DNA of 64,000 nt from an uncultured Planctomycetia bacterium (GTDB lineage: Bacteria > Omnitrophota > Gorgyraeia > Tantalellales > Tantalellaceae): NCBI GenBank assembly GCA_964527765.1, contig CAZGQR010000004.1:64083-128082 (forward strand), read 5' to 3'. Positions within the stretch are counted from its first letter, which is position 1. The number at the start of each line of letters is the position of its first letter. This document shows positions 15,507 through 58,157 of the stretch, one piece after another. Under the pieces are notes generated by a model, which was not told the DNA's origin, ran no database searches, and was given only the letters and a program-made list of their open reading frames with translations. Both the position numbers and the translations under genes were made by a program.

Positions 15507-15567
15507 TCCGGACCTCACAGCTTTTAACCTGTGCAAAATCAGAAACACCGAAAGGGAGAACTTCGCT

Positions 15568-16335: not shown

Positions 16336-16339
16336 ATAT

Positions 16340-17674: not shown

Positions 17675-17720
17675 TCGCGTTACGGAATGATCTTTCCGGG
17701 GCATCAAAGAGGAGAACTAA

Positions 17721-18488: not shown

Positions 18489-18500
18489 GGCAGGACAAAA

Positions 18501-31892: not shown

Positions 31893-31893
31893 T

Positions 31894-32961: not shown

Positions 32962-32978
32962 CGGGGGGTGTCGTCGGT

Positions 32979-33674: not shown

Positions 33675-33709
33675 GTTTCTGGAAATAATAACATAAAGGA
33701 GAGAAAACA

Positions 33710-37207: not shown

Positions 37208-37211
37208 TTGA

Positions 37212-39603: not shown

Positions 39604-39606
39604 AAT

Positions 39607-41453: not shown

Positions 41454-43895
41454 ATGCATTATAGAAACAATATGGATTTCAGATTTTCGTCAAAAGCGGA
41501 TGTTCTTGAGTGGCTGAGACCGCGGGTGAAACATTCCTGCGTGGAGAAGCTCTACGTATGCACCGTTGATCGATGGATGAAGGACGCGGACACGGTGTTC
41601 AGGGAAATACAGAAAGAGTTCCCGGAAGGCAGGATTGTTATGAGAAGTTCTTCGCTGCAGGAGGACGGGTTGACCGGTTCCAGAGCGGGATATTTCAAAA
41701 GCGTACTCGACCTTCCGGTCCTGTTTTCCAGGACAGAAGCCGCCGCTGCCGCGATAATCGATTCTTACAAGAGGGCGGAACGCGACGGAACAGGCGGAGG
41801 ACCTGGCACGGACAGGGAGCAGATCCTGGTGCAGTCGCAAACCGGAAATATCCGCGTGAGCGGGGTGGTCTTCACACGTCAGATAGAGACTAACGCGCCT
41901 TATTACGTGATCAATTATGATGATAGGAGCGGCAGGACGGATACGGTTACCGGCGGGATGGAAGGCAAAGTGATATATATTTCACATTTTGCCGATGCAT
42001 CATCCGACGCAAGATGGAGAGGGCTGATACGGGCGGTCAAGGAACTTGAATTCCTGTTCAAGGGGGCGGTCCTCGATATAGAGTTTGCTATTACGGGGGA
42101 AGGTAAGGTGGTCATTTTTCAGGTCAGGCCCCTCGCGGCGAACCGTGATATCGCGATGCCCGAGGACGGGTTTACCAGGCATCTTATAGAGGATATGGTG
42201 AAGAAATTCAGCCGCTTCTCGCAGCGCGTGCCTCATCTGGCCGGCGAGACCACCGTTTTAGGCGATATGCCCGACTGGAACCCCTCGGAGATCATAGGCA
42301 GCCGGCCGAATACTCTTGACTACACGATGTACAGCTTTATCGTGACGGATGAAGTCTGGCACGAAGCAAGAAGCTCTCTTGGGTACTATGACGTCTATCC
42401 CGCGGAACTCATGCTTTCTTTTGGCAAAAAACCCTATATCGACGCAAGGGCGAGCTTTAATTCTTTCACCCCCGCCGATATGCCACATGAGCTCAGGGAA
42501 AAACTGGTGAATTACTATCTGGATAAGCTGAGGAAAAATCCTGCCTATCAGGATAAGGTGGAATTTGAAATATTGTGGACCTGCTATGATTTTTTGACAG
42601 CAAAGAAACTGAATATATTGTCAAAGCACGGGTTCAGCAGCGCGGATATTGACACTTTTTCAAAGGCGCTGAAGGGCCTTACAAACAGCATACTGAAGGA
42701 TTCCCGCGGCATCACGGAACACGACCTGAAACAGGTGAAACTTTTGACCGAGCGGCGGGACAGGATCATGCGGTTTTACGGGAAGAGCGATAAAACGCCC
42801 TGGAATTCGCTCCATACGGCCTACGGCATCCTGCAAAACTGCAAAAGGTTCGGGACATTCCCTTTTTCCAGACAGGCGCGACTGGCTTTTATAGCAAAAA
42901 GTTTTCTCATTAGCCTCAGAAAAGAAGAGGTTGTTTCGGAGGAATTCTACCATGACTTTCTGAACTCGATACGCACCGTAGCTTCCGAATTCAATGATGA
43001 TTTTTATCGTCTGCAGAACGGGGAGCTAGACAAAGATTCTTTCATCGGGCAGTACGGACATCTAAGAGCCGGGACATATGACATCACCACCCCCAGATAT
43101 GATAGCTCTTCCAATCTCTTTGACGGACAGGCCGACGCAAAGGCGGTCCGGCGCCCGATGTACGGTTTTAACGCGCCAAAGAAGGTCCTGAAGAATATTG
43201 ATAAACTGATGGAACTTCACGGCATACACGGGAACGGCGCGTACCTGATGGATTTCATGAGATCGGCCGTCAGGAACAGGGAATGCGCCAAATTCGAATT
43301 TACCAGAAGCCTGAGCGACGCGTTGGAATTGATCGCCGAAGCCGGAAAAATGCTGGGCTTTGACCGTGAGCAATTATGTCACGCGGATCTTCCCACGATC
43401 ATGAAATTTCGCAATCCCGAACACGGCGATTCGGATTATGCCCGGAAGATCATAAAGCAGTCCATAGACAGACATAAGAAGGAAAGAGAATGGTATGACG
43501 CGGTCATTCTCCCTCCCGTGATAATTTCCGAGAGGGATTTTTATTATGTGGAACCTTATGAGGCGATACCGAATTTTATTACGCGCAAGTCCGTAAAGGG
43601 CCGGATCATTACTTTCGACGAGATAAAACACATGAAAGAACATGTTTTAGAGGGCCGTATCGTGCTTCTGGAAAATGCGGATCCCGGGTTTGACTGGATA
43701 TTTACAAAAAGACCTCTGGGGATAGTTACCAAGTACGGAGGGGTGGCTTCCCACATGTCCATAAGATGCGCCGAGTTTGGCATACCGGCCGCGATAGGAT
43801 GCGGCGACGTTATTTATGATGGCCTGAAAAAGGCGAAACTTGTCGAACTGGACTGCATGAGGAAGACCGTAAGGCCGTTAAACAGTCATGGATAA
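41454..43895 (+). CDS. PPDK/PEP-synthase-like ATP-dependent kinase lacking a PEP-binding TIM barrel; candidate L-glutamine kinase (Cj1418-like)
   Basis: N-terminal ATP-grasp/PPDK_N-like region. C-terminal PEP-utiliser swivel domain with phosphohistidine motif GGVASHMSIRCAEFGIPAAIG. Protein ends about 55 aa after the His, so there is no PEP/pyruvate-binding domain, as in small-molecule kinases of this fold. Followed by C26, NTase and APS-kinase-like genes in the same order as cj1418c-cj1415c. Confidence 0.65.
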   Translation: MHYRNNMDFRFSSKADVLEWLRPRVKHSCVEKLYVCTVDRWMKDADTVFREIQKEFPEGRIVMRSSSLQEDGLTGSRAGYFKSVLDLPVLFSRTEAAAAAIIDSYKRAERDGTGGGPGTDREQILVQSQTGNIRVSGVVFTRQIETNAPYYVINYDDRSGRTDTVTGGMEGKVIYISHFADASSDARWRGLIRAVKELEFLFKGAVLDIEFAITGEGKVVIFQVRPLAANRDIAMPEDGFTRHLIEDMVKKFSRFSQRVPHLAGETTVLGDMPDWNPSEIIGSRPNTLDYTMYSFIVTDEVWHEARSSLGYYDVYPAELMLSFGKKPYIDARASFNSFTPADMPHELREKLVNYYLDKLRKNPAYQDKVEFEILWTCYDFLTAKKLNILSKHGFSSADIDTFSKALKGLTNSILKDSRGITEHDLKQVKLLTERRDRIMRFYGKSDKTPWNSLHTAYGILQNCKRFGTFPFSRQARLAFIAKSFLISLRKEEVVSEEFYHDFLNSIRTVASEFNDDFYRLQNGELDKDSFIGQYGHLRAGTYDITTPRYDSSSNLFDGQADAKAVRRPMYGFNAPKKVLKNIDKLMELHGIHGNGAYLMDFMRSAVRNRECAKFEFTRSLSDALELIAEAGKMLGFDREQLCHADLPTIMKFRNPEHGDSDYARKIIKQSIDRHKKEREWYDAVILPPVIISERDFYYVEPYEAIPNFITRKSVKGRIITFDEIKHMKEHVLEGRIVLLENADPGFDWIFTKRPLGIVTKYGGVASHMSIRCAEFGIPAAIGCGDVIYDGLKKAKLVELDCMRKTVRPLNSHG

Positions 43896-44592
43896 TATGT
43901 ATTATGCGATCTCACTGAGCGTCGAGCCGGGCGATGTTCCCCGGGATTTTCTGTATACCGACTATCGCTTTTTTTTCGAGAAGTTCGGATGTAGACTCGT
44001 TTATCTACCCAATCACGCCGGTGCGATTGGATCCTATTTTGACGATTTACCGCTCAGCGGGGTGATATTGTCCGGCGGCAACGATCTGAGCGCCGAGTTC
44101 ACCGGCCAGGTGGATCTTGACATACGTAACCCGGCGCCGGGGCGGGATGCTGCGGAAAAAAAGATACTTGATCTCGCCGTTGCGAGAAAAATGCCCGTGT
44201 TGGGCATATGCCGCGGCATGCAGTTTATAAACTGTTATTTCGGAGGATCTATAACGCAAAAGATCGGAGAGCAAGGGGGTGCGAAACAGCCGCACGTGAA
44301 GCGGAAACATATGATCGCGATCTGTGATAATGAAACGTCTGAATTTTTAGGTGCAAAAGAGATGGAGGTCAATTCTTATCATCATCAAGGCATAAAAAAA
44401 GACCAGGTTGCCGCGGATTTAAAGATAATGGCGATATCTCCCGGGGACGGGATCGTAGAAGCGGTTTATCATCCTTCATTGCCGCTGGTGGGCGTGCAAT
44501 GGCATCCCGAGAGAGAAGGCTCCTCGCCAGAAGTAAATGACAGGTTGATTGAAGCGTTTGTGTGGAGAAAACATCACTGGAAGGATAAATGA
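43888..44592 (+). CDS. Class I glutamine amidotransferase-like / peptidase C26 hydrolase (Cj1417-like candidate gamma-glutamyl-CDP-amidate hydrolase)
   Basis: Nucleophile elbow GICRGMQFIN and His-Glu VQWHPE. Confidence 0.7.
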   Translation: MDNMYYAISLSVEPGDVPRDFLYTDYRFFFEKFGCRLVYLPNHAGAIGSYFDDLPLSGVILSGGNDLSAEFTGQVDLDIRNPAPGRDAAEKKILDLAVARKMPVLGICRGMQFINCYFGGSITQKIGEQGGAKQPHVKRKHMIAICDNETSEFLGAKEMEVNSYHHQGIKKDQVAADLKIMAISPGDGIVEAVYHPSLPLVGVQWHPEREGSSPEVNDRLIEAFVWRKHHWKDK

Positions 44593-45371
44593 TGAAGGCC
44601 ATTATACTTGCCGCCGGTGAAGGAAAAAGGCTGAAACCGTTTGCGGAAAATATGCCGAAATGCCTTATAGAACTTGAAGGCAAGAGTATACTTGACCGAC
44701 AGATAGAGGTAATACGCCGTTGTGGGATAGATGACGTAATAGTCGTAAAAGGGTACATGGCGAACAGGATCAACCGCAAAGATGTCCATTATTATTTTAA
44801 CAAGGATTATGGCACGACAAATATGGTCATGACATTGTGGTGCGCCGAAAAGGAATTGAAGGGTGAGGTAGTCGTTTCTTATGGCGACATCGTATATAAC
44901 GAGGAAGTGCTCCGTAGTCTAATCGATTCCGCCCACGACATATCCGTTGTAGTGGATGTCGCCTGGGAGAAGTACTGGAAAATGCGGTTTGACGACCCCT
45001 TGAAAGATGCCGAAGCTTTTAAGATGGACAGAACAGGACGGATAGAAATTATCGGTCAGAGAGCTGAAAGGATTTCGGATATCGAAGCGGGTTACATAGG
45101 ATTGGTCAAGTTTCGGGGCGGGGGGATGAAAGCTTTTAGGGAATCGTTCTTGAACGCGCGAAACGTTTCCAGGAACGGGGGGAAGGCATGGGGCGCGCCC
45201 CGACCATTCGAAAAATCCTATATGACAGACATGCTCCAGGGGCTGGTCAATGAAGGTCATGACGTATACGGGGTCAAGGTGGAAGGCGGCTGGGTAGAAA
45301 TAGATTCACCCAGCGATTATGATCTGGCGAAAAAGTTGTTTGTGGACGGAAAAATCAAAGCACTGGTTTAA
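44589..45371 (+). CDS. Short-form nucleotidyltransferase (Cj1416-like candidate CTP:phosphoglutamine cytidylyltransferase)
   Basis: MKAIILAAGEGKRLKPFAENMPKCLIEL G-loop signature. 260 aa. Confidence 0.7.
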   Translation: MMKAIILAAGEGKRLKPFAENMPKCLIELEGKSILDRQIEVIRRCGIDDVIVVKGYMANRINRKDVHYYFNKDYGTTNMVMTLWCAEKELKGEVVVSYGDIVYNEEVLRSLIDSAHDISVVVDVAWEKYWKMRFDDPLKDAEAFKMDRTGRIEIIGQRAERISDIEAGYIGLVKFRGGGMKAFRESFLNARNVSRNGGKAWGAPRPFEKSYMTDMLQGLVNEGHDVYGVKVEGGWVEIDSPSDYDLAKKLFVDGKIKALV

Positions 45372-45387
45372 AAAGGAAAGACAGATC

Positions 45388-46677
45388 ATGAAAACCATAT
45401 TTATTGGCGGGATTCAGAGAAGCGGCGGTTCTTTATTGGCGCGTTTATTCGATGGTCACCCGGATATTGCAAGTTATCCCGTGGAATGCAGTTTTCCCGT
45501 GAATAATAAGATCTATCCCGTTTTTGAAAATTATACCGGCATTCCCTTGACCATGCCGTTGTTTGATCCGACGGCTGATAAGGACATTTTTGAGATAACG
45601 AATACCCCTTCTGAAAAACCGAAAGTGATACTTAAATTCGGAAAGGAAAAGGAAGATCTGATAGGCGTGCGCAGGAACTATCTGGAAAAGGAATATTATG
45701 ACACGGTTAAAACCGACTTTGACTTTTTCAGATTCAAAGCGCTTTTTACTTCTTATGCGGAGGTGGCTAAAACAATAGAGGAACTTTACGACGCGAAACA
45801 CAGAGCTTACTTCGCCGCCTGGGATAACGGGATGCATTCCGGGAGCATGAAATTTGTTTCATGGCATTCCAGTTCCGGGATATACCTTACGAATATAGAC
45901 AGATATTTTAGCGAGTTCAAGGATTCATTTTTCATCCACCCGTTACGGGATATTATGGGGTATATTGCGTCTGAAAAAACAAGATTAACGAGGCAATATT
46001 ATGGTTCACGCCGTTTTCCGAAAATGAAAATGCCCAATATTTTTGTCAAGAAATTCAAGAACTATGATCTGGAAGCTCAGATCAGAGGATGGATGGCCAC
46101 GTTGACCCGGGTGGTTCTCCTGCAGGAACGATTCGGGGTGCGGGACAGGTTTTTTGTCGTCAGATACGAAAATATTGCAAATGATGCTGAATCTGTCATG
46201 AGATCTTTATGCGAAAAAATAGGCTTGGATTTTCATAATACTTTGCTTGAACCCACAATAGGCGGTTATCCCTGGGGCGGGAATTCGCACCAGGGCAAAC
46301 AGCGGGGCATTAATAAGGATTTAAGTTCATATTATCCGCAGGTCCTGACATCGCAGGAAATCAGGCTTATTGATAGATCCACGGCGCCCATTAGAGAATA
46401 TCTTGATCGATGCAAAGAGACCCCGGCAGATTTGGGGAAGATTCGTAAAAAGCATTTGTATGATTATGAATATCAGAAAAGATATTTCGACGACGAAGAA
46501 AAACTCTTTTTATATTACGCGCTTGTAAACAGCGGCAGGCGGAAGATAACGGTCAAGAACCCCGACTTTACGGCGATCATCGCTTTTTTGTATAAAAAGA
46601 TAATCCATCTTATTCATATACCACGCTTGCTTAAATTGAGGTTTTTTCACGGATGGGGGAAGCAGAACTATACATAG
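45388..46677 (+). CDS. Sulfotransferase-fold protein (Sulfotransfer_3-like) with PAPS-type 5'-PSB and 3'-PB motifs
   Basis: 5'-PSB loop GGIQRSGGSLLARLF. 3'-PB-like HPLRDIMGYIAS (R-x7-S). Start set at ATG 45388 (MKTIFIGG) after an AAAGGAAAG RBS; the ORF-track extension to 45319 overlaps the upstream gene. Confidence 0.65.
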   Translation: MKTIFIGGIQRSGGSLLARLFDGHPDIASYPVECSFPVNNKIYPVFENYTGIPLTMPLFDPTADKDIFEITNTPSEKPKVILKFGKEKEDLIGVRRNYLEKEYYDTVKTDFDFFRFKALFTSYAEVAKTIEELYDAKHRAYFAAWDNGMHSGSMKFVSWHSSSGIYLTNIDRYFSEFKDSFFIHPLRDIMGYIASEKTRLTRQYYGSRRFPKMKMPNIFVKKFKNYDLEAQIRGWMATLTRVVLLQERFGVRDRFFVVRYENIANDAESVMRSLCEKIGLDFHNTLLEPTIGGYPWGGNSHQGKQRGINKDLSSYYPQVLTSQEIRLIDRSTAPIREYLDRCKETPADLGKIRKKHLYDYEYQKRYFDDEEKLFLYYALVNSGRRKITVKNPDFTAIIAFLYKKIIHLIHIPRLLKLRFFHGWGKQNYT

Positions 46678-46737
46678 AGAGATTGCTCCGCGACATGAAG
46701 ACATGTACGAGCAAAGCGCATTGAAAGAGAGGCTTGT

Positions 46738-47271
46738 ATGGGGCACATAATATTGCTAACGGGTATTTCCGGTTCGGGCAAGACCACGCTGGGGAATGCT
46801 TTGAAAGACGTTCTTACCCGGGAGGGCAGGCGGCCGGTTGAATTTATCGACGGCGACACAACACGTGAGTTTTTGGGTAATGATCTGGGTTATGCCCCGC
46901 GGGACCGGTTGTTGATAACGAAACAGATAGCATACGCGGCGTATTTATTGTCTAAGAACGGCATTGATGTCATTGTGGCCAATATCGCCGGCAGCTATGA
47001 GATCCGGGATTATTTGAGGGGGAAATGGGAACGGTATATACAGATTTTTCTGGATGCCGACATCGAAGACTGTATCAAAAATGACCGCAAGGGCGTTTAC
47101 GGGAAAGCCCTGGAATCGGAAAAACCCTGGCTTTACGGGATAGATATGCTCTATGAAAAGCCGCGTAGCCCCGACTTAACGGTATATCCTTACAAGGAAA
47201 GCGTGAAAGAAAGTCTTAGCAGGATAATAGATTGTTTGACGGGAAGGAAATTTTTCACAGTAAAAAATTAA
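46738..47271 (+). CDS. Adenylylsulfate (APS) kinase-family P-loop kinase (Cj1415-like candidate cytidine diphosphoramidate 3'-kinase)
   Basis: P-loop ILLTGISGSGKTTLGNAL. IDGDTTREFLGNDLGYAPRDR and KGVYGKA align with the CysC DGDNIR...LGFS..DR and KGLYKKA blocks. Confidence 0.8.
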   Translation: MGHIILLTGISGSGKTTLGNALKDVLTREGRRPVEFIDGDTTREFLGNDLGYAPRDRLLITKQIAYAAYLLSKNGIDVIVANIAGSYEIRDYLRGKWERYIQIFLDADIEDCIKNDRKGVYGKALESEKPWLYGIDMLYEKPRSPDLTVYPYKESVKESLSRIIDCLTGRKFFTVKN

Positions 47272-47283
47272 CTTGGGGAGATC

Positions 47284-48240
47284 ATGTCTGGATTCGAGAT
47301 AGAAAGAAAAGCGTTCACCAAAAATCTGGCTTTGATAACCGGGCTTACAAGGTCCGGAAAGTCTATGCTGGGCCCGATAGTTTCCAGTTTCGAAGGTGCT
47401 GAAAACGTAAGACTTAACTATCTCATGGAATTGGTCCCTCCCATGAATAAGATAGAGCTGATAACGGAGGATGTCGCAATTTATCTCATGAGGCATGCTG
47501 TTGATTTCATGCTGTATGACAATATGATAGGACGGAATTCAAATTTTCGGCCTTCGGATTATACGAGCATATGGAGGACAAAGAACCCCGCTAAGTATTT
47601 TCAGCGCTTATTCAGAAAAGAAGGCGATCTTGTTTTTGACGAATTAATGGAAAAAAATATCATTTTTGTTTTGATGTTCCACAATGGACCGTGGTTTGCG
47701 GATATTTTATTCAAAGCTTTTCCGGACATGAAAATGCTGTATGTAAAAAGGAATCCCGTTGATGTGGTGTCCTCATGGTACAAGAAAGGGTATGGCACAG
47801 ATTTTTATGCGAAACCCAGAAACGGGCTTTTAACGATAAAATGGAAAGGCAGGACCCTGCCTTTTTATTCCGCGGGATGGGAGGAAGAATATTGTTCTTT
47901 GGGAGAAGTGGACAGGATCGTATTTACAATAAACAAGATCGAGATGAAATTTAAAGAAACATTGCATGGTCTTTCGGACGCGCAGCGCGAGAACATTATG
48001 GAAGTTTGCTTTGAGAGAATGGTCACAAAGCCGGATATGGTGATCCCTGAGGTCTGTAGATTTTTGGGCACAAATGAGACCGCATACACGCCCAGGGTCC
48101 TTAAGCAGGAGCTTTGTCCGCGGGTTCTTCGCGAAAAAGATCAGGAGGAAAAGTTCAATAAGATCAAGGAAAATTGTTCGTCGAAAGCCGCGGATCTGTT
48201 GGGAGCCATGGTTAAAGGATATAAAGATAACGCAGGATAA
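47284..48240 (+). CDS. Sulfotransferase-fold protein with PAPS-type 5'-PSB and 3'-PB motifs
   Basis: 5'-PSB ITGLTRSGKSMLGPIV. Classical 3'-PB YVKRNPVDVVSSWY. GGGGAG RBS. Confidence 0.7.
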   Translation: MSGFEIERKAFTKNLALITGLTRSGKSMLGPIVSSFEGAENVRLNYLMELVPPMNKIELITEDVAIYLMRHAVDFMLYDNMIGRNSNFRPSDYTSIWRTKNPAKYFQRLFRKEGDLVFDELMEKNIIFVLMFHNGPWFADILFKAFPDMKMLYVKRNPVDVVSSWYKKGYGTDFYAKPRNGLLTIKWKGRTLPFYSAGWEEEYCSLGEVDRIVFTINKIEMKFKETLHGLSDAQRENIMEVCFERMVTKPDMVIPEVCRFLGTNETAYTPRVLKQELCPRVLREKDQEEKFNKIKENCSSKAADLLGAMVKGYKDNAG

Positions 48241-48243
48241 TGC

Positions 48244-50160
48244 ATGAAGTACTGTTTGATAGAAAAATGGCACGCTGATTATTCTCTTCCCAGGGAGTGT
48301 AAAGTCGTGCCTTTGACCACTGAAGCGAGTGATTCGCTTGAGAAATGCGGCGTTGATTATGTGACGTTCCAGGAGTATTTTTCATCGGGCGAGGTTCGCG
48401 GCGACACGGACGGTTATCTTGATTCTCAGCGGGTATGGTTCCGGGAATTTGACCGGTTTGTTTGGAGCGTTTTTCCCGAAGCGGAAAAAATGAAGGTCCG
48501 GTTACCCTCGCTTTACTTTTACAATATAAAACACCTGGTAGATTGCGCCGTGCTGACCGCAAGGATCATCAATAAGTTTCTGGATGTTGTCAAACCGGAT
48601 AAGGTCTGGTTCATCCCGAAGATCCGCGGCAGCGGCAAAATGCATCGGTGGTACTGGTATTCTTTCGACAGAAGTGCCTTCGCGCATTTATTGGAGCCGC
48701 TTTGCCGGAAAAGGGGGATTGCATTCGAAGAGTTGTATGCCGACCAAGAGCAGCCCCCGACGCTAAAAGAAGACACGGTGAAACCCTTCGCTGGAATAAT
48801 GAAAGTTAAAGGCTTGTTCACATCCAGGATCAGAGGTTTTCTTAAAACGGCCAGGGAAGTATGTGCGCAATATCCATATTTTGTTTTCTTTTCGAAACAT
48901 AAAAAAGGCAGCATCCTGGTCGTGAACGTCAAAAATTATCTTTATGACTTTTGCCGAGATTGTCGCAAGAACGGATTCAGCGTGTTCCTGAAAAACGGAG
49001 ATTATGTGCGTAAGCCCTCCTTATTCCCGGCAAAAGAAAAGATCGGTCCGGGAAAAAGCAGCGGCGCGAAATACCCGAACGGTCCTGACAAAGATTCTGT
49101 TATGGATGGTTTCATCCGCAGTGGCGTCATGGACTGGATAAACGAACGGTGTGGACTGGACGTTTCTTCCATGATGTATCCAAGATTTAAATATGTTTTG
49201 TGCGATGTTTTTCCAGAAACACTGAGCTGTATAAAGAGTTTTGTCGATTTTTACAACAGGAATAATATAGATTTTGTTGTTAATTATTCCCTTTCTTCAG
49301 AGGATGAGTTTGCTGCTGCAGCTGCCGCGGCGATCAGCGATTCCACGAAAAGCGTTGGTTTTAGCCATGGCACCGATGCTTATGAGGCAAAACCCAGATT
49401 TTTTCTGGAATACAACCACTATGATTTCTATTTCGTGAATACGAAAGCAGAGGCGGACCACATAAAAGGCCTGGCCGATGGGTATGGTTTTTCAAAGCCT
49501 TCAGCGCATGAATACCCGTATTTCCGGAAACGCTTTTCCCGGATAGCTGAAAAAAGAAGCCGGGCAGAACGACTGAAAAAGACGCGTAAACAAGATAAGC
49601 CGATCGTTCTTTTTGCTCCCGTGATGCGCACAGAGAGGATGCATATGCCCATTGTGAATACTCAGCCACTTCAATGGGATTATTTCAGGTGGCATTACGC
49701 TCTTATTGACTATTTTGCGTCAAGATCCGATTTCAGGTTCGTATGGAAGGCGCTTTTACAGCCCTTGGGTTTCGGGGATACTATCCGTGATCTTTTGCAG
49801 GACAAGCGCTATGGGAACATCAGTTTCAGTTCCGATAAGTTAAGCGAATGGATGATCGCCGCTGACAGAATATTGTGCGATGTTCCCGGAGGGGCGTTTT
49901 ATGAAAGCATTTTCAGCGGGATACCGACGCTGGCTTTTTACCGTCCGAAAGACCAGGAACTCCGCAAGGATGCTTATCATGTTTTCGGCCCGAGTTTACA
50001 GCCATATTCGACCATTGAAGATGGGATCAAAGCGGTTGAGGATTTTCTGGACAGCGCTCCCAAAAGATATATTGTTACAATCCCTCAAGAGCGATCGTCC
50101 GTGCCCGGTATTCTTATGAATGGCGTTCAAGAAAGGCAAGATCATGTCGGAAGAATATAA
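48244..50160 (+). CDS. Hypothetical 638-aa protein with TagF-like (CDP-alcohol phosphotransferase-like) C-terminal pattern
   Basis: PIVLFAPVMRTER (compare TagF KVILYAPTWRD) and IAADRILCDVPGGAFYESIFSGIPTLAFYRP (compare TagF SDILITDYSSVMFDFA..KPIIFY). Same architecture and length as the 20992-22917 protein. Confidence 0.4.
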   Translation: MKYCLIEKWHADYSLPRECKVVPLTTEASDSLEKCGVDYVTFQEYFSSGEVRGDTDGYLDSQRVWFREFDRFVWSVFPEAEKMKVRLPSLYFYNIKHLVDCAVLTARIINKFLDVVKPDKVWFIPKIRGSGKMHRWYWYSFDRSAFAHLLEPLCRKRGIAFEELYADQEQPPTLKEDTVKPFAGIMKVKGLFTSRIRGFLKTAREVCAQYPYFVFFSKHKKGSILVVNVKNYLYDFCRDCRKNGFSVFLKNGDYVRKPSLFPAKEKIGPGKSSGAKYPNGPDKDSVMDGFIRSGVMDWINERCGLDVSSMMYPRFKYVLCDVFPETLSCIKSFVDFYNRNNIDFVVNYSLSSEDEFAAAAAAAISDSTKSVGFSHGTDAYEAKPRFFLEYNHYDFYFVNTKAEADHIKGLADGYGFSKPSAHEYPYFRKRFSRIAEKRSRAERLKKTRKQDKPIVLFAPVMRTERMHMPIVNTQPLQWDYFRWHYALIDYFASRSDFRFVWKALLQPLGFGDTIRDLLQDKRYGNISFSSDKLSEWMIAADRILCDVPGGAFYESIFSGIPTLAFYRPKDQELRKDAYHVFGPSLQPYSTIEDGIKAVEDFLDSAPKRYIVTIPQERSSVPGILMNGVQERQDHVGRI

Positions 50161-50866
50161 ATATTTCAAGAACCAATATCTTGACGACATCAGGGAAAAC
50201 TATTTCAAACCCGTGCTCGATGATGTTTTCAAAAAATACGGGAAGAACATAAAGGTCATGGGGGATGTAGGTTGTGGTAACGGCATATTCAGCACTTATT
50301 TGAAGAGAGAACGCGAAATAACGCTGTGCGGGTTTGACGCCAGCGAGTACGCCCTTGAATGTGCGCTGCGGAAGGGCATGGACAAAGTCTTCTTGAACGA
50401 GGATTTCAGCACGCGGGCGTTGCAGGTAAACGATGCTTATTTTGATTTTGTCCTTAATAAAGATGTCCTGGAACATCTCATGGATCCGGAATTCTTGATA
50501 AAGGAGATCGCCAGGGTGTTAAAACCCGATGGGCTGTTTCTTTTGCACGTTCCCAATGATTTTAACCTGTGGAAGAGGATCCAGTTTGTTTTTTCCAACA
50601 GTATCGATACGTACAGCTATTGCCCCGGCGCGAAGCAGTGGAACTGGCCACACATACGTTTTTTTACGTTTGAAGGCATAAAAGAACTGTTGCACATGCA
50701 TGGTTTTGAGATCATAGAGAATTACAGCTCTTTTTTTGCTCATCGACTTTCGAAAATACACAGGATCCCGGGATATATGCCGGTAGCCAGGTTGCTCGCC
50801 GGCAGATATCCGTCGCACTTCTCTCAGGCGGTGAGCGTTTTAACGAAGAGGGGAAAAAAAGCATGA
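50144..50866 (+). CDS. Class I SAM-dependent methyltransferase
   Basis: Motif I VMGDVGCGNGIFSTYL. FDFVLNKDVLEHL. Start at ATG 50144 preferred over 50120. Confidence 0.65.
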   Translation: MSEEYKYFKNQYLDDIRENYFKPVLDDVFKKYGKNIKVMGDVGCGNGIFSTYLKREREITLCGFDASEYALECALRKGMDKVFLNEDFSTRALQVNDAYFDFVLNKDVLEHLMDPEFLIKEIARVLKPDGLFLLHVPNDFNLWKRIQFVFSNSIDTYSYCPGAKQWNWPHIRFFTFEGIKELLHMHGFEIIENYSSFFAHRLSKIHRIPGYMPVARLLAGRYPSHFSQAVSVLTKRGKKA

Positions 50867-52800
50867 GAAACGAAAGTTCAAATACATCGAAAAGGTCCGC
50901 GGATGTCGTTTTGCTGCAGTTGCCCTTTTGGGGGGTAGGGTGCCCGCCTCTGGGGCCGGCGCTTTTGAAAAGCTACCTGGCGCAAAACGGCATTTCCTGC
51001 AAAGTATTCGATATCAACGCGCATGCCTACTCTATACGGGGCAAAAGATATTTCGACTGGTGGGAATTGAAGAACGGATATTATTTTTTTCAGGGCGACG
51101 AGGGGAAAATGCTTGAGTATTACCGTGATAACAGGGCGTTATTCCTTTTTTATATAGGTGAGATCATCAAGCTGAGCCCGAAGGTCGTCGGGTGCTCATG
51201 TCATAATACTTCCATCACGTTGAGTAAAATATTTCTGGGGGAATTGAAGAACTACTTGCCGAATTGTAAATATATCCTTGGAGGACCGGAAGTTGCCGGA
51301 TTTATGAATAATGCGGACCAGCTCTTGTCGGAGGATTATATTGACGCCGTGGCGCTTGATGAGGGTGAGAAGAGCCTCGTTGGCTATTTCCGGGGCCTGG
51401 AGGAGGATTCCGAAGGCCCCATACCCGGTCTTGTGTACAAGAAAGACGGACGTATCATCGAAGGCGGGGAGGTCGATATTATCGGGGACCTGGATGAGCT
51501 TCCCTTTCCCGATTTCAGCGAATTTAACCTTGAGCATTATTATAAACCGAACTCATTGCCAAGTTATACCTCCAGGGGATGCGTGAACAGATGCATATAT
51601 TGCAGCGGCAGGACTTACATGAAGCGCTTCAGGAATCGGTCCGGTAAGAGGATATTCGAGGAATTCAAATATCTGAAAGAACATTATCCCGAGGCCGACT
51701 ATATAAGACTGTGTGATAATGTCTCCAACGGCGATATCAAAAAGCTGGAATCGCTGTGTGACCATTTAACGGAGGCGGACCTGGGTATAAGTTGGACGCT
51801 GGATAATGCCGTTATTCGCAAAGAAATGAGAGCGCCGCTTTATAAAAAACTAAAGAAAGCGGGATGCACGCTGATAGGTTACGGTTTGGAAACGCCGTGT
51901 CACAGGATACTCGAGAACATAGGCAAGCATTTTTCGAGGGGGGTTGATTTTGTAAAAGTGTTCAAAGAGGGCAAAAAGGCCGGGATATATATAAGCGTTA
52001 ATGTGATGTTCGGCTTGCCGGGGGAAACGGAAGAAGATTTCAGGTATATGATCAATTTTGTGGTAAAGAACAGACGCGCGTTTAACATGCTGAACCCGTC
52101 CCTGACTTTTTGCGAATTTTATCCCGGTTCAGCAGGGTATGACGAACCGGGAAGGTTCGACCTGGATATGGCCAAGGGAAGCCTTTTTTGGGAGTCCGTC
52201 GATGGGGCCAATAACTATCTCGTAAGGATGAGGCGTTTTGAGGAATTTTGCAAGGTTCTGAACAAATATAAATATGACACTCTTTTTTATGTCAAGGAGC
52301 TTCCGAATAAGCATGCCCTTTTATTTGAATATTATTTCATAAGCAATGAGTACGATAAAGCCATGGAGCATTACGGGAAAATACCGCTCGATCAGATCAA
52401 TGCCAAGGTAAAAGAGATATACCGCAAGATCAACGGCAAAAGCGTGCCGGGAACCGGGGAAAAGAAACTGCGATTAAGCGACTTTATAGAGAAAGATAAA
52501 ACGTTCGAAGAATCATTTTTGGAGGTTTCTTTGGCCGAGGCCATAGAACAGTTGCAAAAGACGGACGTATTTGAACTCGGCCCCAAAAAGGCGTGGAAGC
52601 GGAAGTTGCGCTCCTTTGCACATCGCGTAATAGGTTATGACAGGATCGAGGAAAGGGTCAGCAGCGTTTATTCCATGATGAAACTTATTGACGCCAAAAT
52701 AAACTGTTATGCGGCCGCCGCGTACAGCCACAAAAATGGAATAGGCGAAGAAGAAAAGATTGAAGTAAAAAATCAAAGGATGCGTGGATTGACCGGATGA
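50863..52800 (+). CDS. B12-binding domain radical SAM enzyme (second copy)
   Basis: N-terminal B12-binding-like VVLLQLPFWGVGCPPLGPALLKSYLAQNGISCKVFDIN. SRGCVNRCIYCSG CX3CX2C motif. ATGA overlap with the upstream gene. Confidence 0.75.
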   Translation: MRNESSNTSKRSADVVLLQLPFWGVGCPPLGPALLKSYLAQNGISCKVFDINAHAYSIRGKRYFDWWELKNGYYFFQGDEGKMLEYYRDNRALFLFYIGEIIKLSPKVVGCSCHNTSITLSKIFLGELKNYLPNCKYILGGPEVAGFMNNADQLLSEDYIDAVALDEGEKSLVGYFRGLEEDSEGPIPGLVYKKDGRIIEGGEVDIIGDLDELPFPDFSEFNLEHYYKPNSLPSYTSRGCVNRCIYCSGRTYMKRFRNRSGKRIFEEFKYLKEHYPEADYIRLCDNVSNGDIKKLESLCDHLTEADLGISWTLDNAVIRKEMRAPLYKKLKKAGCTLIGYGLETPCHRILENIGKHFSRGVDFVKVFKEGKKAGIYISVNVMFGLPGETEEDFRYMINFVVKNRRAFNMLNPSLTFCEFYPGSAGYDEPGRFDLDMAKGSLFWESVDGANNYLVRMRRFEEFCKVLNKYKYDTLFYVKELPNKHALLFEYYFISNEYDKAMEHYGKIPLDQINAKVKEIYRKINGKSVPGTGEKKLRLSDFIEKDKTFEESFLEVSLAEAIEQLQKTDVFELGPKKAWKRKLRSFAHRVIGYDRIEERVSSVYSMMKLIDAKINCYAAAAYSHKNGIGEEEKIEVKNQRMRGLTG

Positions 52801-56049: not shown

Positions 56050-57177
56050 ATGAAGATCGAATTTTACAGGCACAGCCTAGAAAAGGAAGATAAAAACGAA
56101 GTGGCAAAAGTCCTGGATTCCGTTTTTTTGACTTCCGGGGAGTGGACAAAGGCGTTTGAGCGGAAACTAGCCGATTATGTAGAAAGCAGATACGCGGTGG
56201 GATTGACTTCCTGCACGAATGCCCTGGAGATCACGTTGAAATATTTCGGAATAGAACAAGGTGACGAAGTCATCACGACGCCCATGTCCTTTATAGCGAC
56301 TGCGAATGCCGTGGAATATTGCGGGGCGAAGCCCGTGTTTGTTGATGTGGAGCCGGACACCGCGAATATCAATGCGGACCTGATAGAAAGCGTGGTCACC
56401 CCGAGGACAAAAGCGATATTACCGGTGCATCTTTACGGGCATATGTGCGATATGGGAAGAATAAGAAAGATCGCTGATAAACACGGCCTGAAAGTTATCG
56501 AGGATGCCGCCCACTGCATGGAAGGTCAAAGAGACGGCATCAAACCGGGACAAGTGGGGGACGCGGCCTGTTTCAGTTTTTACGCCACTAAGAACATTAC
56601 CTGCGGGGAGGGCGGCGCCGTTTCGTGCAATGATCCGGAGATGTATGACTGGTTATTTAAAGCAAGGATGCACGGGATGACCAAGAATGCGGCCGATCGT
56701 TATTCTAAAAAATATGAGCATTATGACATGGACTTTCTGGGGTTTAAGTGCAATATGAGTAATATCCAGGCCGCGCTTTTAATCCATCAGATTGAAAGGA
56801 TCGAGACGTTGCTGTCTGCAAGGCAAAGGATCGCCCAGCGATATGATGAAGCCTTTCTCGGCAATCCTGGTATAAAGGTGCTTGGGACTTTGCCTGGGAC
56901 CAGACACGCCAGGCATCTGTACACGATACTGGTCGATCCACGTAAGAGGGACGAATATATGCACAGGTTGCAGGAAGCGGGCGTCGGTGTCGCGATCAAT
57001 TACAGATCCATCCATCTGATGAAGTATTATCGCCAAAAATACGGGTATAAAAGAGGGGATTTCCCGGTATGCGAAAGGATAGGGGATTCGACTATTTCCA
57101 TTCCTTTTTATCCCAAGCTGAGCGATGAAGAGGCAGGATACATTATTAACGCGGTGAATTCAATGACGAATTCGTGA
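56050..57177 (+). CDS. DegT/DnrJ-family PLP-dependent NDP-4-keto-6-deoxyhexose aminotransferase
   Basis: GLTSCTNALEITL, TPMSFIATANAVEYCGAKPVFVDV, and FSFYATKNITCGEGGAV (PLP lysine region). GGAGGA RBS. Confidence 0.8.
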   Translation: MKIEFYRHSLEKEDKNEVAKVLDSVFLTSGEWTKAFERKLADYVESRYAVGLTSCTNALEITLKYFGIEQGDEVITTPMSFIATANAVEYCGAKPVFVDVEPDTANINADLIESVVTPRTKAILPVHLYGHMCDMGRIRKIADKHGLKVIEDAAHCMEGQRDGIKPGQVGDAACFSFYATKNITCGEGGAVSCNDPEMYDWLFKARMHGMTKNAADRYSKKYEHYDMDFLGFKCNMSNIQAALLIHQIERIETLLSARQRIAQRYDEAFLGNPGIKVLGTLPGTRHARHLYTILVDPRKRDEYMHRLQEAGVGVAINYRSIHLMKYYRQKYGYKRGDFPVCERIGDSTISIPFYPKLSDEEAGYIINAVNSMTNS

Positions 57178-57194
57178 GTCGATCGGGAGGTAAA

Positions 57195-58157
57195 ATGAAC
57201 AGAAGAAACGAGCAGATCGAAGCCGTTAGCGGGTGGTGGAACACTGAAAGAAACAAGGAAAAATGGGACAGGGCTTATATCAAGACAAATGTTCATGGCA
57301 GGATGTATTTGAAAACACGGCAAAGGCGCGTTCTTAATTACATGAATGAGGCCGGCTTAAAAGAGGGTTCCCGGGTTCTCGAGTTGGGTTATGGCGCGGG
57401 ACAGACGGCTTTGGAGCTCGGGAAACGGGGATTTGAGGTCTACGGCTTGGATATTTCGGAGAAATTTCGTGAGGTAGCCAGTGCAAGGTGCAGGAGGATG
57501 CATCCGGAGGGAAAATTTTATTTAAAAACCGGGAACATTGAATCAAATTATGAATTCAAGGATGGTTTCTTTGACGCGGTGGTTGTGGTTGGAGCTTTGC
57601 AGTATCTTTACGACCCTTCTGTCTGTCTGAGAGAAGTATTCAGGGTCCTCAGGCCCGGAGGGTTCTTTGTAGTAGCCCAGAGAAATATTTATTCTCTGAG
57701 CAATTTGACTTCACCGAGGGAATTCGCGCGTGCCTGCGCCCATTTTTTCCTGAGAGAAAAATACGAATTATTCCCTTCGTTCAAGTCCATACTGGTCGAC
57801 TCAAAACTGGGATGTATATTCAAACGGTTTGAAGGCTCAAAGTTTTTTAATACGCGATTCATGCTAAAAGGGCATGATGAGTGGAAATTCAAGATCAAAA
57901 AAAGGATAAATTCATATTTCTCCCTCAAGTCGATACTGAAAAGGGAGGGGTTCGCCACGCTTAAAGCCGATGGTGCCTATTATTGCGTTTCCGAGACACC
58001 GCGGTTCTTCTATATCAATCTGAAAGCGGACAGGCTGATCGAAAAAATAAACGGCAAGCTGAGAATACCTTATTTGTTCACGTTGGGAAGAAGCATTGTT
58101 TTGCTGTGTAAAAAAGGGGCGAGGGAAGCGTTTTTGCAAAGATCGGGAGGCATGTAA
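57195..58157 (+). CDS. Class I SAM-dependent methyltransferase
   Basis: Motif I VLELGYGAGQTALELG. Start at ATG 57195 directly after a GGGAGG RBS; the ORF-track start at 57174 would contain that RBS. Confidence 0.6.
   Translation: MNRRNEQIEAVSGWWNTERNKEKWDRAYIKTNVHGRMYLKTRQRRVLNYMNEAGLKEGSRVLELGYGAGQTALELGKRGFEVYGLDISEKFREVASARCRRMHPEGKFYLKTGNIESNYEFKDGFFDAVVVVGALQYLYDPSVCLREVFRVLRPGGFFVVAQRNIYSLSNLTSPREFARACAHFFLREKYELFPSFKSILVDSKLGCIFKRFEGSKFFNTRFMLKGHDEWKFKIKKRINSYFSLKSILKREGFATLKADGAYYCVSETPRFFYINLKADRLIEKINGKLRIPYLFTLGRSIVLLCKKGAREAFLQRSGGM

What the first reader, a model, noticed from the sequence alone, without database searches (positions are those of the whole stretch)
45388..48240. 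Two sulfotransferase-fold proteins interleaved with the phosphoramidate cassette: candidate users of a 3'-phospho-CDP-amidate (PAPS-mimic) donor
The proteins at 45388-46677 and 47284-48240 both carry bacterial sulfotransferase-family hallmarks: a 5'-phosphosulfate-binding P-loop (QRSGGSLL; TRSGKSML) and a 3'-phosphate-binding R-x7-S element (KRNPVDVVSSWY; HPLRDIMGYIAS). They flank the CysC-like kinase, yet no ATP sulfurylase is visible anywhere in the window. The only 3'-phosphorylated nucleotide donor this locus is predicted to make is 3'-phospho-CDP-amidate, which is isosteric with PAPS at the 3'-phosphate and 5'-diphospho positions. Inference: either the glycan is sulfated using PAPS made elsewhere in the genome, or these sulfotransferase-fold enzymes have been recruited as phosphoramidate transferases. 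C. jejuni uses unrelated proteins (Cj1421/Cj1422) for that step, so this would be a previously undescribed enzyme solution. In both cases an anionic S- or P-based modification system is hard-wired into the Pse/Leg sugar island.
Basis: inference. Interest (0 to 1): 0.8.

Follow-up and report, generated by a model that had tools for sequence, protein, structure and literature searches.

The report
Sulfotransferase-fold enzymes in a phosphoramidate cassette
Two genuine sulfotransferase-fold genes sit inside a sugar-decoration operon that makes a PAPS-like phosphoramidate donor, and comparison with about 170 related loci suggests one adds the phosphoramidate and the other adds sulfate.

Summary
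ST1 (45388-46677) and ST2 (47284-48240) are real, conserved sulfotransferase-superfamily proteins. They flank an APS-kinase-like gene directly downstream of Cj1418/Cj1417/Cj1416 homologues. No ATP sulfurylase was found in the ORFs examined.

ST2 always occurs with a cytidylyl-activated phosphorus cassette: the phosphoramidate trio, or a PEP-mutase phosphonate set in four loci. Those cassettes share a Cj1416-like cytidylyltransferase and a non-canonical APS-kinase-like gene. 16 of 18 long ST2 loci carry such a kinase, against 1 of 25 loci without ST2. ST2 is therefore the best candidate for a transferase using 3'-phospho-CDP-amidate.

ST1's usual partners are a pyruvate-kinase/ATP-sulfurylase fusion and a canonical APS kinase. 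15 members of its subclade carry that sulfurylase. The window is one of three exceptions with readable downstream sequence. ST1 is therefore most likely a PAPS sulfotransferase that has lost its private PAPS supply.

All of this is genomic inference. The neighbouring GT-B protein remains a rival phosphoramidate transferase. I could not obtain Cj1421/Cj1422 sequences, so the claim that they are 'unrelated' is untested.

The parts
41454..43895 (+). Cj1418-like L-glutamine kinase (PEP-utilizer/PPDK_N), first enzyme of the phosphoramidate trio
   Evidence: NCBIfam NF004508 (PRK05849), 840.7 bits against a cutoff of 501. Pfam PEP-utilizers and PPDK_N. At least 1492 50%-identity clusters match at E<1e-30.
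43888..44592 (+). Cj1417-like glutamine amidotransferase (gamma-glutamyl-CDP-amidate hydrolase type)
   Evidence: Pfam Peptidase_C26 at E 1.2e-38. The best NCBIfam hit is NF045546 gamma-glutamyl-CDP-amidate hydrolase at 84.6 bits, below its cutoff of 250. It keeps a conserved position between the Cj1418-like and Cj1416-like genes in most related loci.
44589..45371 (+). Cj1416-like nucleotidyl (cytidylyl) transferase
   Evidence: Pfam NTP_transf_3 at E 5e-16. Conserved third gene of the trio. It is 27-36% identical to the NTP transferases that precede ST2 in phosphonate loci.
45388..46677 (+). ST1: 429-aa Sulfotransfer_3-type sulfotransferase-fold protein, most likely a PAPS-dependent sulfotransferase
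   Evidence: Pfam hit. 278 homologues. AlphaFold model at pLDDT 91, with all 50 listed PDB matches sulfotransferases. 15 members of its subclade have a PK-ATP-sulfurylase gene directly downstream.
46738..47271 (+). APS-kinase-family 3'-kinase of a non-canonical clade ('B'), inferred to be a CDP-amidate kinase (Cj1415 function)
   Evidence: Pfam APS_kinase at E 1.4e-32. It falls below every NCBIfam cutoff: TIGR00455 119.7/138.7 and PRK05541 111.3/127. In the two-kinase loci L090, L104 and L149 it is the kinase not adjacent to the sulfurylase. It lacks the ISP motif and the Asn that the sulfurylase-coupled kinases keep.
47284..48240 (+). ST2: 318-aa Sulfotransfer_1-type protein, the best candidate for the phosphoramidate transferase using 3'-phospho-CDP-amidate
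   Evidence: Pfam hit. Canonical RNPxDxxxS(W) 3'-PB motif and an invariant SGK P-loop. It is always found with a trio or a phosphonate cassette, and next to a kinase, a Cj1416-like gene or a Cj1418-like gene. It co-varies with non-A kinases, 16/18 against 1/25.
48244..50160 (+). LIC12162-family (PF27859) 638-aa GT-B fold transferase. Probably the nonulosonic-acid or other glycosyl transferase; rival candidate for CDP-dependent phosphoramidate transfer
50120..50866 (+). SAM-dependent methyltransferase directly after the transferases; possible O-methylation of the phosphoramidate or a sugar
   Evidence: Pfam Methyltransf_11 at E 4.6e-20. Only weak similarity to the cassette-embedded methyltransferases elsewhere.
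57174..58157 (+). Methyltransferase homologous to the one embedded between the Cj1416-like gene and ST1 in loci L170/L175
   Evidence: 50-53% identity over 308 aa, E 1e-97 to 7e-102. Pfam Methyltransf_11.

Best explanation
The block 41454-50866 is one operon-like unit inside a nonulosonic-acid glycan island. It installs anionic groups on the glycan.

Inferred from homology: the Cj1418/Cj1417/Cj1416 homologues make CDP-amidate from glutamine, ATP and CTP.

Inferred from clade and context: the kinase at 46738-47271 adds the 3'-phosphate, giving 3'-phospho-CDP-amidate, a PAPS look-alike.

Inferred from gene co-variation only: ST2 (47284-48240) binds this donor through its P-loop and its canonical 3'-phosphate motif. 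It then transfers the phosphoramidyl group to a sugar hydroxyl, releasing 3'-phospho-CMP.

ST1 (45388-46677) belongs to a different sulfotransferase family. That family's conserved partners elsewhere are a truncated-pyruvate-kinase/ATP-sulfurylase fusion and a canonical APS kinase. ST1 is therefore most likely a true PAPS-dependent sulfotransferase. In this organism its private PAPS-synthesis genes are absent. It must use PAPS made elsewhere, or APS phosphorylated by the local kinase.
For: Fold and motifs are shown.

ST2 and phosphorus cassettes:
- 29 ST2 loci were found. Every one of at least 10 kb has the trio (15, plus L100 with an edge fragment) or a PEP-mutase/Ppd/aldehyde-dehydrogenase phosphonate set (L171-L174). 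None of the four phosphonate loci has ST1, a sulfurylase or PK.
- ST2's direct neighbour is usually a kinase, a Cj1416-like NTP transferase or the Cj1418-like gene, across about seven different gene orders.
- The NTP transferases beside ST2 in phosphonate loci are Cj1416 homologues at E 1e-27 to 1e-31. Three of the four phosphonate loci also carry a divergent APS-kinase-like gene. The shared back end is therefore cytidylyltransferase + 3'-kinase + ST2.
- Among 43 loci of at least 12 kb, 16 of 18 with ST2 have a non-A kinase (clades B, C or Pn). Only 1 of 25 without ST2 does, and that one is L103, whose contig is cut inside the Cj1418-like gene.

Kinase classes:
- Trio-embedded kinases pass the PRK05541 cutoff (163 and 211 against 127).
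- The sulfurylase-following kinase tested (L103_7748) passes TIGR00455 (162 against 138.7).
- Loci with both a sulfurylase and the trio mostly carry two kinases: L090, L103, L104, L106, L149, L170, L175.
- The window's kinase clade is the one not coupled to the sulfurylase.

ST1 and sulfate activation: 15 members of the window's ST1 subclade have the sulfurylase fusion directly downstream. L006, L094 and L096 show ST1 plus sulfurylase with no trio in view, though L094 and L096 are short contigs.

Independent support for sulfotransferase-fold partners of the cassette: 14 of 80 GTDB trio loci carry a sulfotransferase-like ORF, and 11 of those have no sulfurylase. Seven (L029, L039, L045, L071, L084, L087, L089) also carry the common methyltransferase.
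Against: - No biochemistry exists for any of these proteins. All function is inferred from context.
- ST1 itself co-occurs with the trio in 20 of 24 well-flanked loci, more often than with a sulfurylase domain (6 of 24).
- Divergent ST1-like proteins sit beside trios that lack any sulfurylase (L079: hhalign 86%, E 5e-6). ST1 could therefore also use the phosphoramidate donor.
- L004 and L092 have a sulfurylase followed only by the window-type kinase. That kinase may accept APS, so kinase plus ST2 could be a minimal sulfation pair fed by housekeeping APS.
- The GT-B protein next to ST2 resembles TagF/TarL CDP-alditol phosphotransferases. It recurs after ST2 in two phosphonate loci.
- The co-variation counts are not phylogenetically independent. 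Many loci are related marine contigs.
- The kinase tree is a rough neighbour-joining tree.
Confidence: 0.42

Rival explanations
1. Both ST1 and ST2 are ordinary PAPS-dependent sulfotransferases. The local kinase makes PAPS from APS supplied by a housekeeping sulfurylase elsewhere in the genome, or is bifunctional. The phosphoramidate is transferred by another protein, most likely the GT-B LIC12162-type enzyme acting on CDP-amidate like a TagF/TarL phosphotransferase.
For: - Both proteins keep canonical PAPS-type motifs.
- Close relatives embed a sulfurylase in the same operon, so PAPS is certainly made there.
- L004 and L092 have the window-type kinase as the only kinase after the sulfurylase.
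- TagF-like (Glyphos_transf), sulfatase-superfamily and CDP-alcohol phosphotransferase genes sit beside trios in other lineages.
Against: - The four phosphonate loci have ST2 plus a Cj1416-like cytidylyltransferase, and three also have a kinase. None has any sulfurylase, ST1 or PK.
- Loci with a sulfurylase and the trio usually carry two different kinases. That is redundant if both make PAPS.
- The window kinase fails the apsK cutoff and lacks the ISP and Asn positions kept by sulfurylase-coupled kinases.
- The LIC12162 family is absent from all 80 GTDB trio loci and from many ST2 loci.
Confidence: 0.28
2. Both ST1 and ST2 are phosphoramidate transferases using 3'-phospho-CDP-amidate. They serve two acceptor positions, the way C. 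jejuni uses the pair Cj1421 and Cj1422.
For: - No sulfate activation was found in the window.
- ST1 co-occurs with the trio in 20 of 24 well-flanked loci.
- Compact trio-ST1-kinase(C)-ST2 operons exist without sulfurylase or PK: L099, L156, L160, L164, L167.
- ST1-like divergent proteins lie next to trios in Lachnospiraceae, Methylococcaceae, Bryobacterales and others, with no sulfurylase.
- C. jejuni uses two transferases for two acceptor sites (PMC3907429).
Against: - ST1 with a sulfurylase but no trio occurs (L006, 10 kb on each side).
- ST1-PK-kinase loci without a trio occur (L128, L131).
- The window's ST1 subclade is mostly sulfurylase-linked.
Confidence: 0.15
3. One or both genes are decaying leftovers of a lost sulfation module and do nothing here.
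For: The sulfurylase and the canonical APS kinase that accompany ST1 in close relatives are missing here. Only 60 bp separate ST1 from the kinase.
Against: - Both ORFs are full length and keep every family-invariant residue.
- They are tightly packed in the operon.
- The same sulfurylase-less arrangement recurs in L107, where ST1 is only about 50% identical.
- The identical genes are seen on several independent assemblies.
Confidence: 0.05

Closest known systems
Campylobacter jejuni O-methyl phosphoramidate (MeOPN) pathway: Cj1415-Cj1418 with transferases Cj1421/Cj1422
   Same: It has the same three donor-building enzymes plus an APS-kinase-family 3'-kinase. The proposed donor, CDP-phosphoramidate 3'-phosphate, is the same (PMC11800397). 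Methyltransferases lie nearby. The target is a surface glycan.
   Different: - The kinase belongs to a different clade and fails the PRK05541 cutoff that typical trio-embedded kinases pass.
- The transferase candidates here are sulfotransferase-fold proteins of 318 and 429 aa, not proteins annotated as sugar transferases.
- There are no poly-G phase-variation tracts.
- The context is a Pse/Leg-type nonulosonic-acid island.
- Cj1421/Cj1422 have only genetic evidence, and I could not compare their sequences.
PAPS-dependent sulfotransferases (TPST1/2, CurM and olefin-synthase ST domains, mycobacterial Stf, heparan sulfate 3-OST)
   Same: The fold, the 5'-phosphosulfate-binding P-loop and the 3'-phosphate-binding Arg...Ser element are shared.
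   Different: - Structural alignments show only 10-17% identity among the top matches.
- ST1 has about 150 extra residues and an invariant C-terminal GKQNYT tail.
- ST2 has Lys directly after the P-loop Gly (SGK).
- There is no sulfate activation in the window.
- ST2 is associated with P-N and P-C cassettes rather than with a sulfurylase.
Canonical bacterial glycan sulfation clusters, such as C. jejuni HS:19 cysD-cysN-cysC plus a putative sulphotransferase (PMC8743553)
   Same: An APS-kinase-family gene lies next to a sulfotransferase in a surface-glycan locus. Relatives of the window carry a sulfurylase in the same operon.
   Different: - The sulfurylase in relatives is a Sat-type enzyme fused to a truncated pyruvate kinase (PK + PUA_2 + ATP-sulfurylase, about 730 aa), not CysDN.
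- The window has none.
- A second, non-canonical kinase and the phosphoramidate trio are interleaved.
Cytidylyl-activated phosphonate tailoring (PntC-type; PMC6697681)
   Same: Sister loci of ST2 encode a PEP mutase fused to a cytidylyltransferase, phosphonopyruvate decarboxylase and a further NTP transferase.
   Different: Described phosphonate tailoring ends with LicD-like phosphotransferases or glycosyltransferases. Here an APS-kinase-like gene and a sulfotransferase-fold gene follow the cytidylyltransferase.
TagF/TarL CDP-alditol phosphotransferases and GT-B glycosyltransferases (for the neighbouring 638-aa protein)
   Different: No Pfam-A or NCBIfam hit at E up to 0.01; only a weak precomputed PF27859 hit. 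Identity is 9-13%. Its function is unknown.

Membership tests
Sulfotransferase superfamily (Pfam Sulfotransfer_1 / Sulfotransfer_3) | Profile score above the curated gathering threshold | tested here: met
   ST1 scores 57.5 bits against 27 (Sulfotransfer_3). ST2 scores 43.9 against 22 (Sulfotransfer_1) and 35.9 against 27 (Sulfotransfer_3).
Sulfotransferase superfamily | 5'-phosphosulfate-binding P-loop near the N-terminus, conserved in the family | tested here: met
   ST1 R11/S12/G13/S15 are at least 90% conserved. ST2 G20/G25/K26 are invariant and S24 is at least 90% conserved.
Sulfotransferase superfamily | 3'-phosphate-binding Arg ... Ser element | tested here: met
   ST2 has RNPVDVVSSW with R156/P158/W165 invariant, aligned to the same motif of PDB 3rnl. 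ST1 R187 is invariant. The Ser is present in the window but is Ala in a subset of homologues.
Sulfotransferase superfamily | Sulfotransferase three-dimensional fold | tested here: met
   For ST1, the model has pLDDT 91 and all 50 listed Foldseek PDB matches are sulfotransferases.
Sulfotransferase superfamily | PAPS-dependent sulfuryl transfer | not testable with these tools
   This needs an enzyme assay. Context favours PAPS for ST1 and a phosphorus donor for ST2.
C. jejuni MeOPN donor pathway (Cj1415-Cj1418) | Cj1418-type L-glutamine kinase | tested here: met
   NF004508, 840.7 bits against a cutoff of 501.
C. jejuni MeOPN donor pathway (Cj1415-Cj1418) | Cj1417-type gamma-glutamyl-CDP-amidate hydrolase | tested here: inconclusive
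   The best NCBIfam hit is NF045546, but at 84.6 bits against a cutoff of 250. Position between the Cj1418-like and Cj1416-like genes is conserved.
C. jejuni MeOPN donor pathway (Cj1415-Cj1418) | Cj1415-type CDP-amidate kinase (PRK05541 subfamily) | tested here: not met
   PRK05541 scores 111.3 against a cutoff of 127, whereas typical trio-embedded kinases score 163-211. The function is inferred from context instead.
Canonical APS kinase (CysC, TIGR00455) | Score above the equivalog cutoff, plus the ISP motif and Asn kept by sulfurylase-coupled kinases | tested here: not met
   TIGR00455 scores 119.7 against 138.7. The window has IAG in place of ISP and Thr in place of the Asn. The residue roles are recalled from knowledge of APS kinase structures and were not tested.
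Cj1421/Cj1422 MeOPN transferases | Sequence or fold homology to Cj1421/Cj1422 | not tested
   No Campylobacter locus was retained by the genome scan. afdb50 was unavailable. The Raushel-group papers that might describe these proteins are not held.
LIC12162 family / GT-B transferases (638-aa neighbour) | GT-B fold | tested here: met

The most novel reading that the evidence does not exclude
A Cj1416-like cytidylyltransferase, an APS-kinase-like 3'-kinase and a sulfotransferase-fold transferase together form a general PAPS-mimicking 'back end'. It takes different front ends: a glutamine-kinase route to phosphoramidate, or a PEP-mutase route to phosphonate. It installs P-N or P-C groups on surface glycans from 3'-phospho-CMP-linked donors. 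Sulfotransferase-fold enzymes would then have a second natural donor class. The uncharacterised phosphoramidate-transfer step, possibly including Cj1421/Cj1422, would get a fold and a mechanism.
Probability: 0.45. Interest if true: 0.85.

Novelty: new variant of a known kind. Interest (0 to 1): 0.65.

Why it matters
The last step of phosphoramidate decoration, moving the group from the nucleotide donor onto the sugar, has only genetic evidence in C. jejuni. I found no mechanism for it in the papers I could search. If ST2-type proteins do this step, several things follow:
- The sulfotransferase fold gains a new donor and a new chemistry: phosphoramidyl, and perhaps phosphonyl, transfer.
- The purpose of the puzzling 3'-phosphorylation by Cj1415-type kinases is explained.
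- Small, compact candidate enzymes become available for biochemical testing.
- Phosphoramidate, phosphonate and sulfate decoration would be shown to share interchangeable gene modules in nonulosonic-acid glycan islands of many uncultured bacteria and archaea.

If both proteins turn out to be plain sulfotransferases, the finding is ordinary.

Tried and rejected
- Obtaining Cj1421/Cj1422: the genome-contig scan with a 70-sequence Cj1418 alignment kept only the best 80 of at least 580 loci, none from Campylobacter. The AlphaFold-database library was not available. Three Raushel-group papers were not held. Full-text searches found no paper linking phosphoramidate transfer to a sulfotransferase fold.
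- 'ST1 and ST2 are paralogues': rejected. Their profiles match only around the 3'-PB region (hhalign probability 4.5%).
- 'The 638-aa neighbour is a sulfotransferase-like or unknown fold': rejected. It is GT-B.
- 'The kinase is a plain CysC': not supported.
- Phase variation as in cj1421/cj1422: there are no G/C homopolymer tracts in 41-52 kb.
- Naming the organism: cluster look-up gave no names. The window is JGI metagenome contig Ga0309772_1000088. Some homologues are labelled Omnitrophota.
- Looking beyond the window start for sulfate-activation genes: the place returned was a 9-kb contig with nothing relevant.
- CDP-alcohol phosphotransferase as the alternative phosphoramidate transferase where ST2 is absent: it is present in 0 of 18 ST2 loci and 22 of 25 ST2-less loci. 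It also occurs in seven loci with no trio in view, so the link is uncertain.

Full report
**What is in the window.** From about 19 kb to the end, the window is one + strand glycan island. G+C drops from about 0.52 to about 0.45 at 18 kb. The island encodes:
- two NeuB-type synthases, two CMP-sugar synthetases, and several dehydratases and aminotransferases;
- a formyltransferase, a carbamoyltransferase, WbqC, two B12/radical-SAM enzymes and four or more methyltransferases (five with the one at 17721-18488 just upstream of the island);
- GT1 and GT2 glycosyltransferases and an asparagine synthase.

The finding lies in a packed run of genes with gaps of -41 to +60 bp:

| Coordinates | Gene | Evidence |
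|---|---|---|
| 40374-41426 | NeuB | |
| 41454-43895 | Cj1418-like glutamine kinase | NF004508, 840.7 bits, cutoff 501 |
| 43888-44592 | Peptidase_C26 amidotransferase | best NCBIfam hit is gamma-glutamyl-CDP-amidate hydrolase, below cutoff |
| 44589-45371 | NTP_transf_3 cytidylyltransferase | |
| 45388-46677 | ST1 | |
| 46738-47271 | APS_kinase-family gene | |
| 47284-48240 | ST2 | |
| 48244-50160 | 638-aa protein, no Pfam-A hit | |
| 50120-50866 onward | methyltransferase, B12/radical-SAM enzyme, GT1 | |

Family assignments in the table are unless stated.

**Checking the observation.** Both proteins score above Pfam's curated sulfotransferase thresholds. ST1 has 278 homologues and ST2 has 44 in the large protein collection.

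In ST1 the motif Ser is Ala in one marine subgroup.

An AlphaFold model of ST1 (pLDDT 91.1) matches only sulfotransferases among the 50 PDB matches listed. The best is TPST1 at E 3.4e-7. ST1 and ST2 are not close to each other (hhalign probability 4.5%).

No sulfurylase or pyruvate-kinase-like gene was found in the 64 kb.

**Relatives of ST1.** I collected 80 metagenomic loci with an ST1 alignment, plus several long contigs. I annotated them with profiles built here.
- ST1's most constant neighbours are a truncated pyruvate kinase (PK) and an APS-kinase-like gene. The PK is either alone or fused as PK + PUA_2 + ATP-sulfurylase (about 730 aa).
- Of 24 loci with at least 6 kb on both sides, 20 have a PK domain. 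Six of these are sulfurylase fusions and 14 are PK alone. Twenty have a kinase and 20 have the Cj1418/17/16 trio.
- In the ST1 tree, the window's own subclade is dominated by loci where the sulfurylase fusion directly follows ST1 (15 members). Only the window, L099 and L107 have enough downstream sequence and lack it.
- L006 has ST1, a second sulfotransferase, the sulfurylase fusion and a kinase, but no trio within 10 kb.

ST1 is therefore most simply a PAPS sulfotransferase. The window looks like a locus that lacks the PAPS-making genes.

**Kinases.** The APS-kinase-like genes fall into groups that track context (rough neighbour-joining tree; BLAST).
- Clade A follows the sulfurylase or PK. 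One member tested passes the apsK cutoff (162 against 138.7).
- Clade C is embedded in or next to the trio. Members pass the PRK05541 cutoff (163 and 211 against 127).
- Clade B is the window's clade (53-66% identity among members). It passes neither cutoff.
- Clade Pn is a further group found in phosphonate loci.

Loci with both a sulfurylase and the trio usually have two kinases. L103, L106, L170 and L175 have A + C. L090 has A + B. L104 and L149 have B plus a divergent sulfurylase-adjacent kinase. In those loci the window-type kinase is the one not attached to the sulfurylase.

Clade B lacks the ISP motif and the Asn that clade A keeps. The residue roles come from my knowledge of APS kinase structures and were not tested.

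I infer that the window kinase does the Cj1415 job. L004 and L092, where it is the only kinase after a sulfurylase, show it might also accept APS.

**Relatives of ST2.**
- Twenty-nine loci carry ST2. All those of at least 10 kb carry either the trio or a phosphonate set. In L100 only a Cj1416-like gene at the contig edge is visible.
- Six look-ups seeded on ST2 homologues alone gave two trio loci (L170, L175) and four phosphonate loci (L171-L174).
- The phosphonate loci encode a PEP mutase fused to a cytidylyltransferase, phosphonopyruvate decarboxylase, an aldehyde dehydrogenase, an NTP transferase and then ST2. Three of the four also have an APS-kinase-like gene. None has ST1, a sulfurylase or PK.
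- The NTP transferase beside ST2 in those loci is a homologue of the Cj1416-like enzyme (E 1e-27 to 1e-31).
- L173's ST2 is 50% identical to the window's. It is followed by a 637-aa protein 37% identical to the window's 638-aa protein.

So the front end (what makes the phosphorus compound) is swapped. The back end (cytidylyltransferase, 3'-kinase, ST2) is kept.

Among 43 loci of at least 12 kb, 16 of 18 with ST2 have a non-A kinase. Only 1 of 25 without ST2 does, and that contig is cut inside the Cj1418-like gene. The link survives about seven different gene orders.

**Independent sample.** Eighty GTDB loci were chosen only for a Cj1418 homologue.
- They include 14 with a sulfotransferase-like ORF within 10 kb. 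Eleven of these have no sulfurylase.
- Seven, from different lineages, combine the trio, the common methyltransferase and a sulfotransferase-like protein. A kinase is visible, separate or fused, in six of the seven. The lineages are Methylococcaceae, Sericytochromatia (two tandem ~600-aa TPR + sulfotransferase proteins), Bdellovibrionales, Bryobacterales, Magnetococcales, Lachnospiraceae and Woesearchaeota.
- The 565-aa protein after the trio in L079 has no Pfam hit. It aligns to the ST1 profile at 86% probability (E 5e-6).
- Other trio loci show different candidates: a sulfatase-superfamily protein, TagF-like proteins and CDP-alcohol phosphotransferases. The transfer step may have several solutions.

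**Mechanism proposed.**
- Inferred from homology to the C. jejuni enzymes (PMC11800397): glutamine is N-phosphorylated, cytidylylated and hydrolysed to CDP-amidate.
- Inferred from clade and context: the kinase adds the 3'-phosphate.
- Inferred from co-variation only: ST2 binds the 3'-phospho-CMP part as sulfotransferases bind PAP. It transfers the phosphoramidyl group to a glycan hydroxyl.
- A nearby methyltransferase may then O-methylate the group. The one at 57174-58157 is 50-53% identical to the methyltransferase embedded in the cassette of L170/L175.
- ST1 adds sulfate from PAPS made elsewhere.

I put about 0.42 on this split reading. I put about 0.6 on 'at least one of the two transfers phosphoramidate', 0.28 on 'both are plain sulfotransferases' and 0.15 on 'both transfer phosphoramidate'.

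**Comparison and novelty.** The donor pathway is the known C. jejuni MeOPN pathway. The proteins are members of the sulfotransferase superfamily. What would be new is the donor and the group transferred.

I found no paper proposing this. The library lacks the key subscription papers. I could not compare Cj1421/Cj1422, so the novelty claim is provisional. I rate it a new variant of a known kind, with interest 0.65.

Noticed in passing
L004:11311-13500, L006:11287-13479, L170:18116-20230, L175:8605-10704; PK alone at L007:11297-12271 and L009:5224-6201: A truncated pyruvate kinase (A/B domains, about 320 aa; TIGR01064 232 bits, below cutoff) is fused to the N-terminus of a PUA_2 + ATP-sulfurylase. 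Elsewhere it stands alone directly before an APS-kinase-like gene. It may regenerate ATP from the kinase's ADP, but its role is unexplained.
   Followed up: partly
L171, L172, L173, L174 (for example L173:5309-12919): ST2 homologues (38-50% identical) sit in phosphonate loci. These encode a PEP mutase-cytidylyltransferase fusion, phosphonopyruvate decarboxylase, an aldehyde dehydrogenase, a Cj1416-like NTP transferase and an APS-kinase-like gene. This suggests 3'-phospho-CMP-phosphonate donors.
   Followed up: partly
43 loci of at least 12 kb; for example L007:9195-10004, L009:8325-9104: CDP-alcohol phosphotransferase genes and ST2 were mutually exclusive: 0 of 18 ST2 loci against 22 of 25 ST2-less ST1 loci. 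This may be an alternative route using CDP-amidate directly. The gene also occurs in seven loci with no trio in view.
   Followed up: partly
L046, L052, L065, L083, L084, L085 (for example L083:9368-12316): The APS-kinase-like domain is fused to the N-terminus of the Cj1418-like glutamine kinase (about 975-995 aa), mainly in Acidobacteriota-type MAGs. Other Cj1418 homologues carry an N-terminal cytidylyltransferase domain (925-1100 aa).
   Followed up: no
L026:6343-8166, L037:6211-7995; L069:7428-8891, L059:12922-14226; L072:6449-9762: Other trio loci have different candidate transferases: a 600-aa sulfatase/alkaline-phosphatase-superfamily protein in Cohnella, and TagF-like Glyphos_transf proteins. 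In Pseudomonas the trio lies next to flagellin and FlgK genes, suggesting flagellin glycan modification.
   Followed up: no
L087:5604-9196: Two tandem ~600-aa TPR + Sulfotransfer_1 proteins lie beside the kinase, the methyltransferase and the trio in a Sericytochromatia MAG. The layout recalls the cj1421/cj1422 pair.
   Followed up: no
window 57174-58157: This methyltransferase is 50-53% identical to the one embedded between the Cj1416-like gene and ST1 in L170/L175. It lies 9 kb downstream of the cassette here.
   Followed up: partly
window 20992-22917: A 641-aa protein with a sub-threshold match to the NCBIfam 'polysaccharide biosynthesis PFTS motif protein' model (TIGR04417, 68.7 bits against cutoff 100). 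A PFTS_polysacc gene also appears in phosphonate locus L172.
   Followed up: no
window 25861-41426: Two parallel nonulosonic-acid routes: NeuB at 28587-29600 and 40374-41426, and CMP-sugar synthetases at 32979-33674 and 37212-37925. They come with a formyltransferase (27931-28590), a carbamoyltransferase (23980-25812), WbqC (39607-40377) and a B12/radical-SAM enzyme (35798-37207). A second B12/radical-SAM enzyme lies further on at 50863-52800. Together these point to a heavily tailored sugar.
   Followed up: no
window 1-18500: The upstream flank has higher G+C (about 0.52 against 0.45, with a dip to 0.40 at 18-20 kb). It encodes glycogen metabolism, including a 1024-aa GH57 + starch-synthase (GT5) fusion at 893-3967, two more GH57 enzymes and GlgC. 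An O-antigen-ligase-like gene lies on the minus strand at 12597-13862.
   Followed up: no
window 45388-46677 (ST1) and homologues: The ST1 family ends in an invariant GKQNYT C-terminus. This is preceded by a long hydrophobic helix (model residues 395-419) and an invariant PWGGNSHQGK-like loop. Neither feature matches the classic sulfotransferase motifs I know.
   Followed up: no
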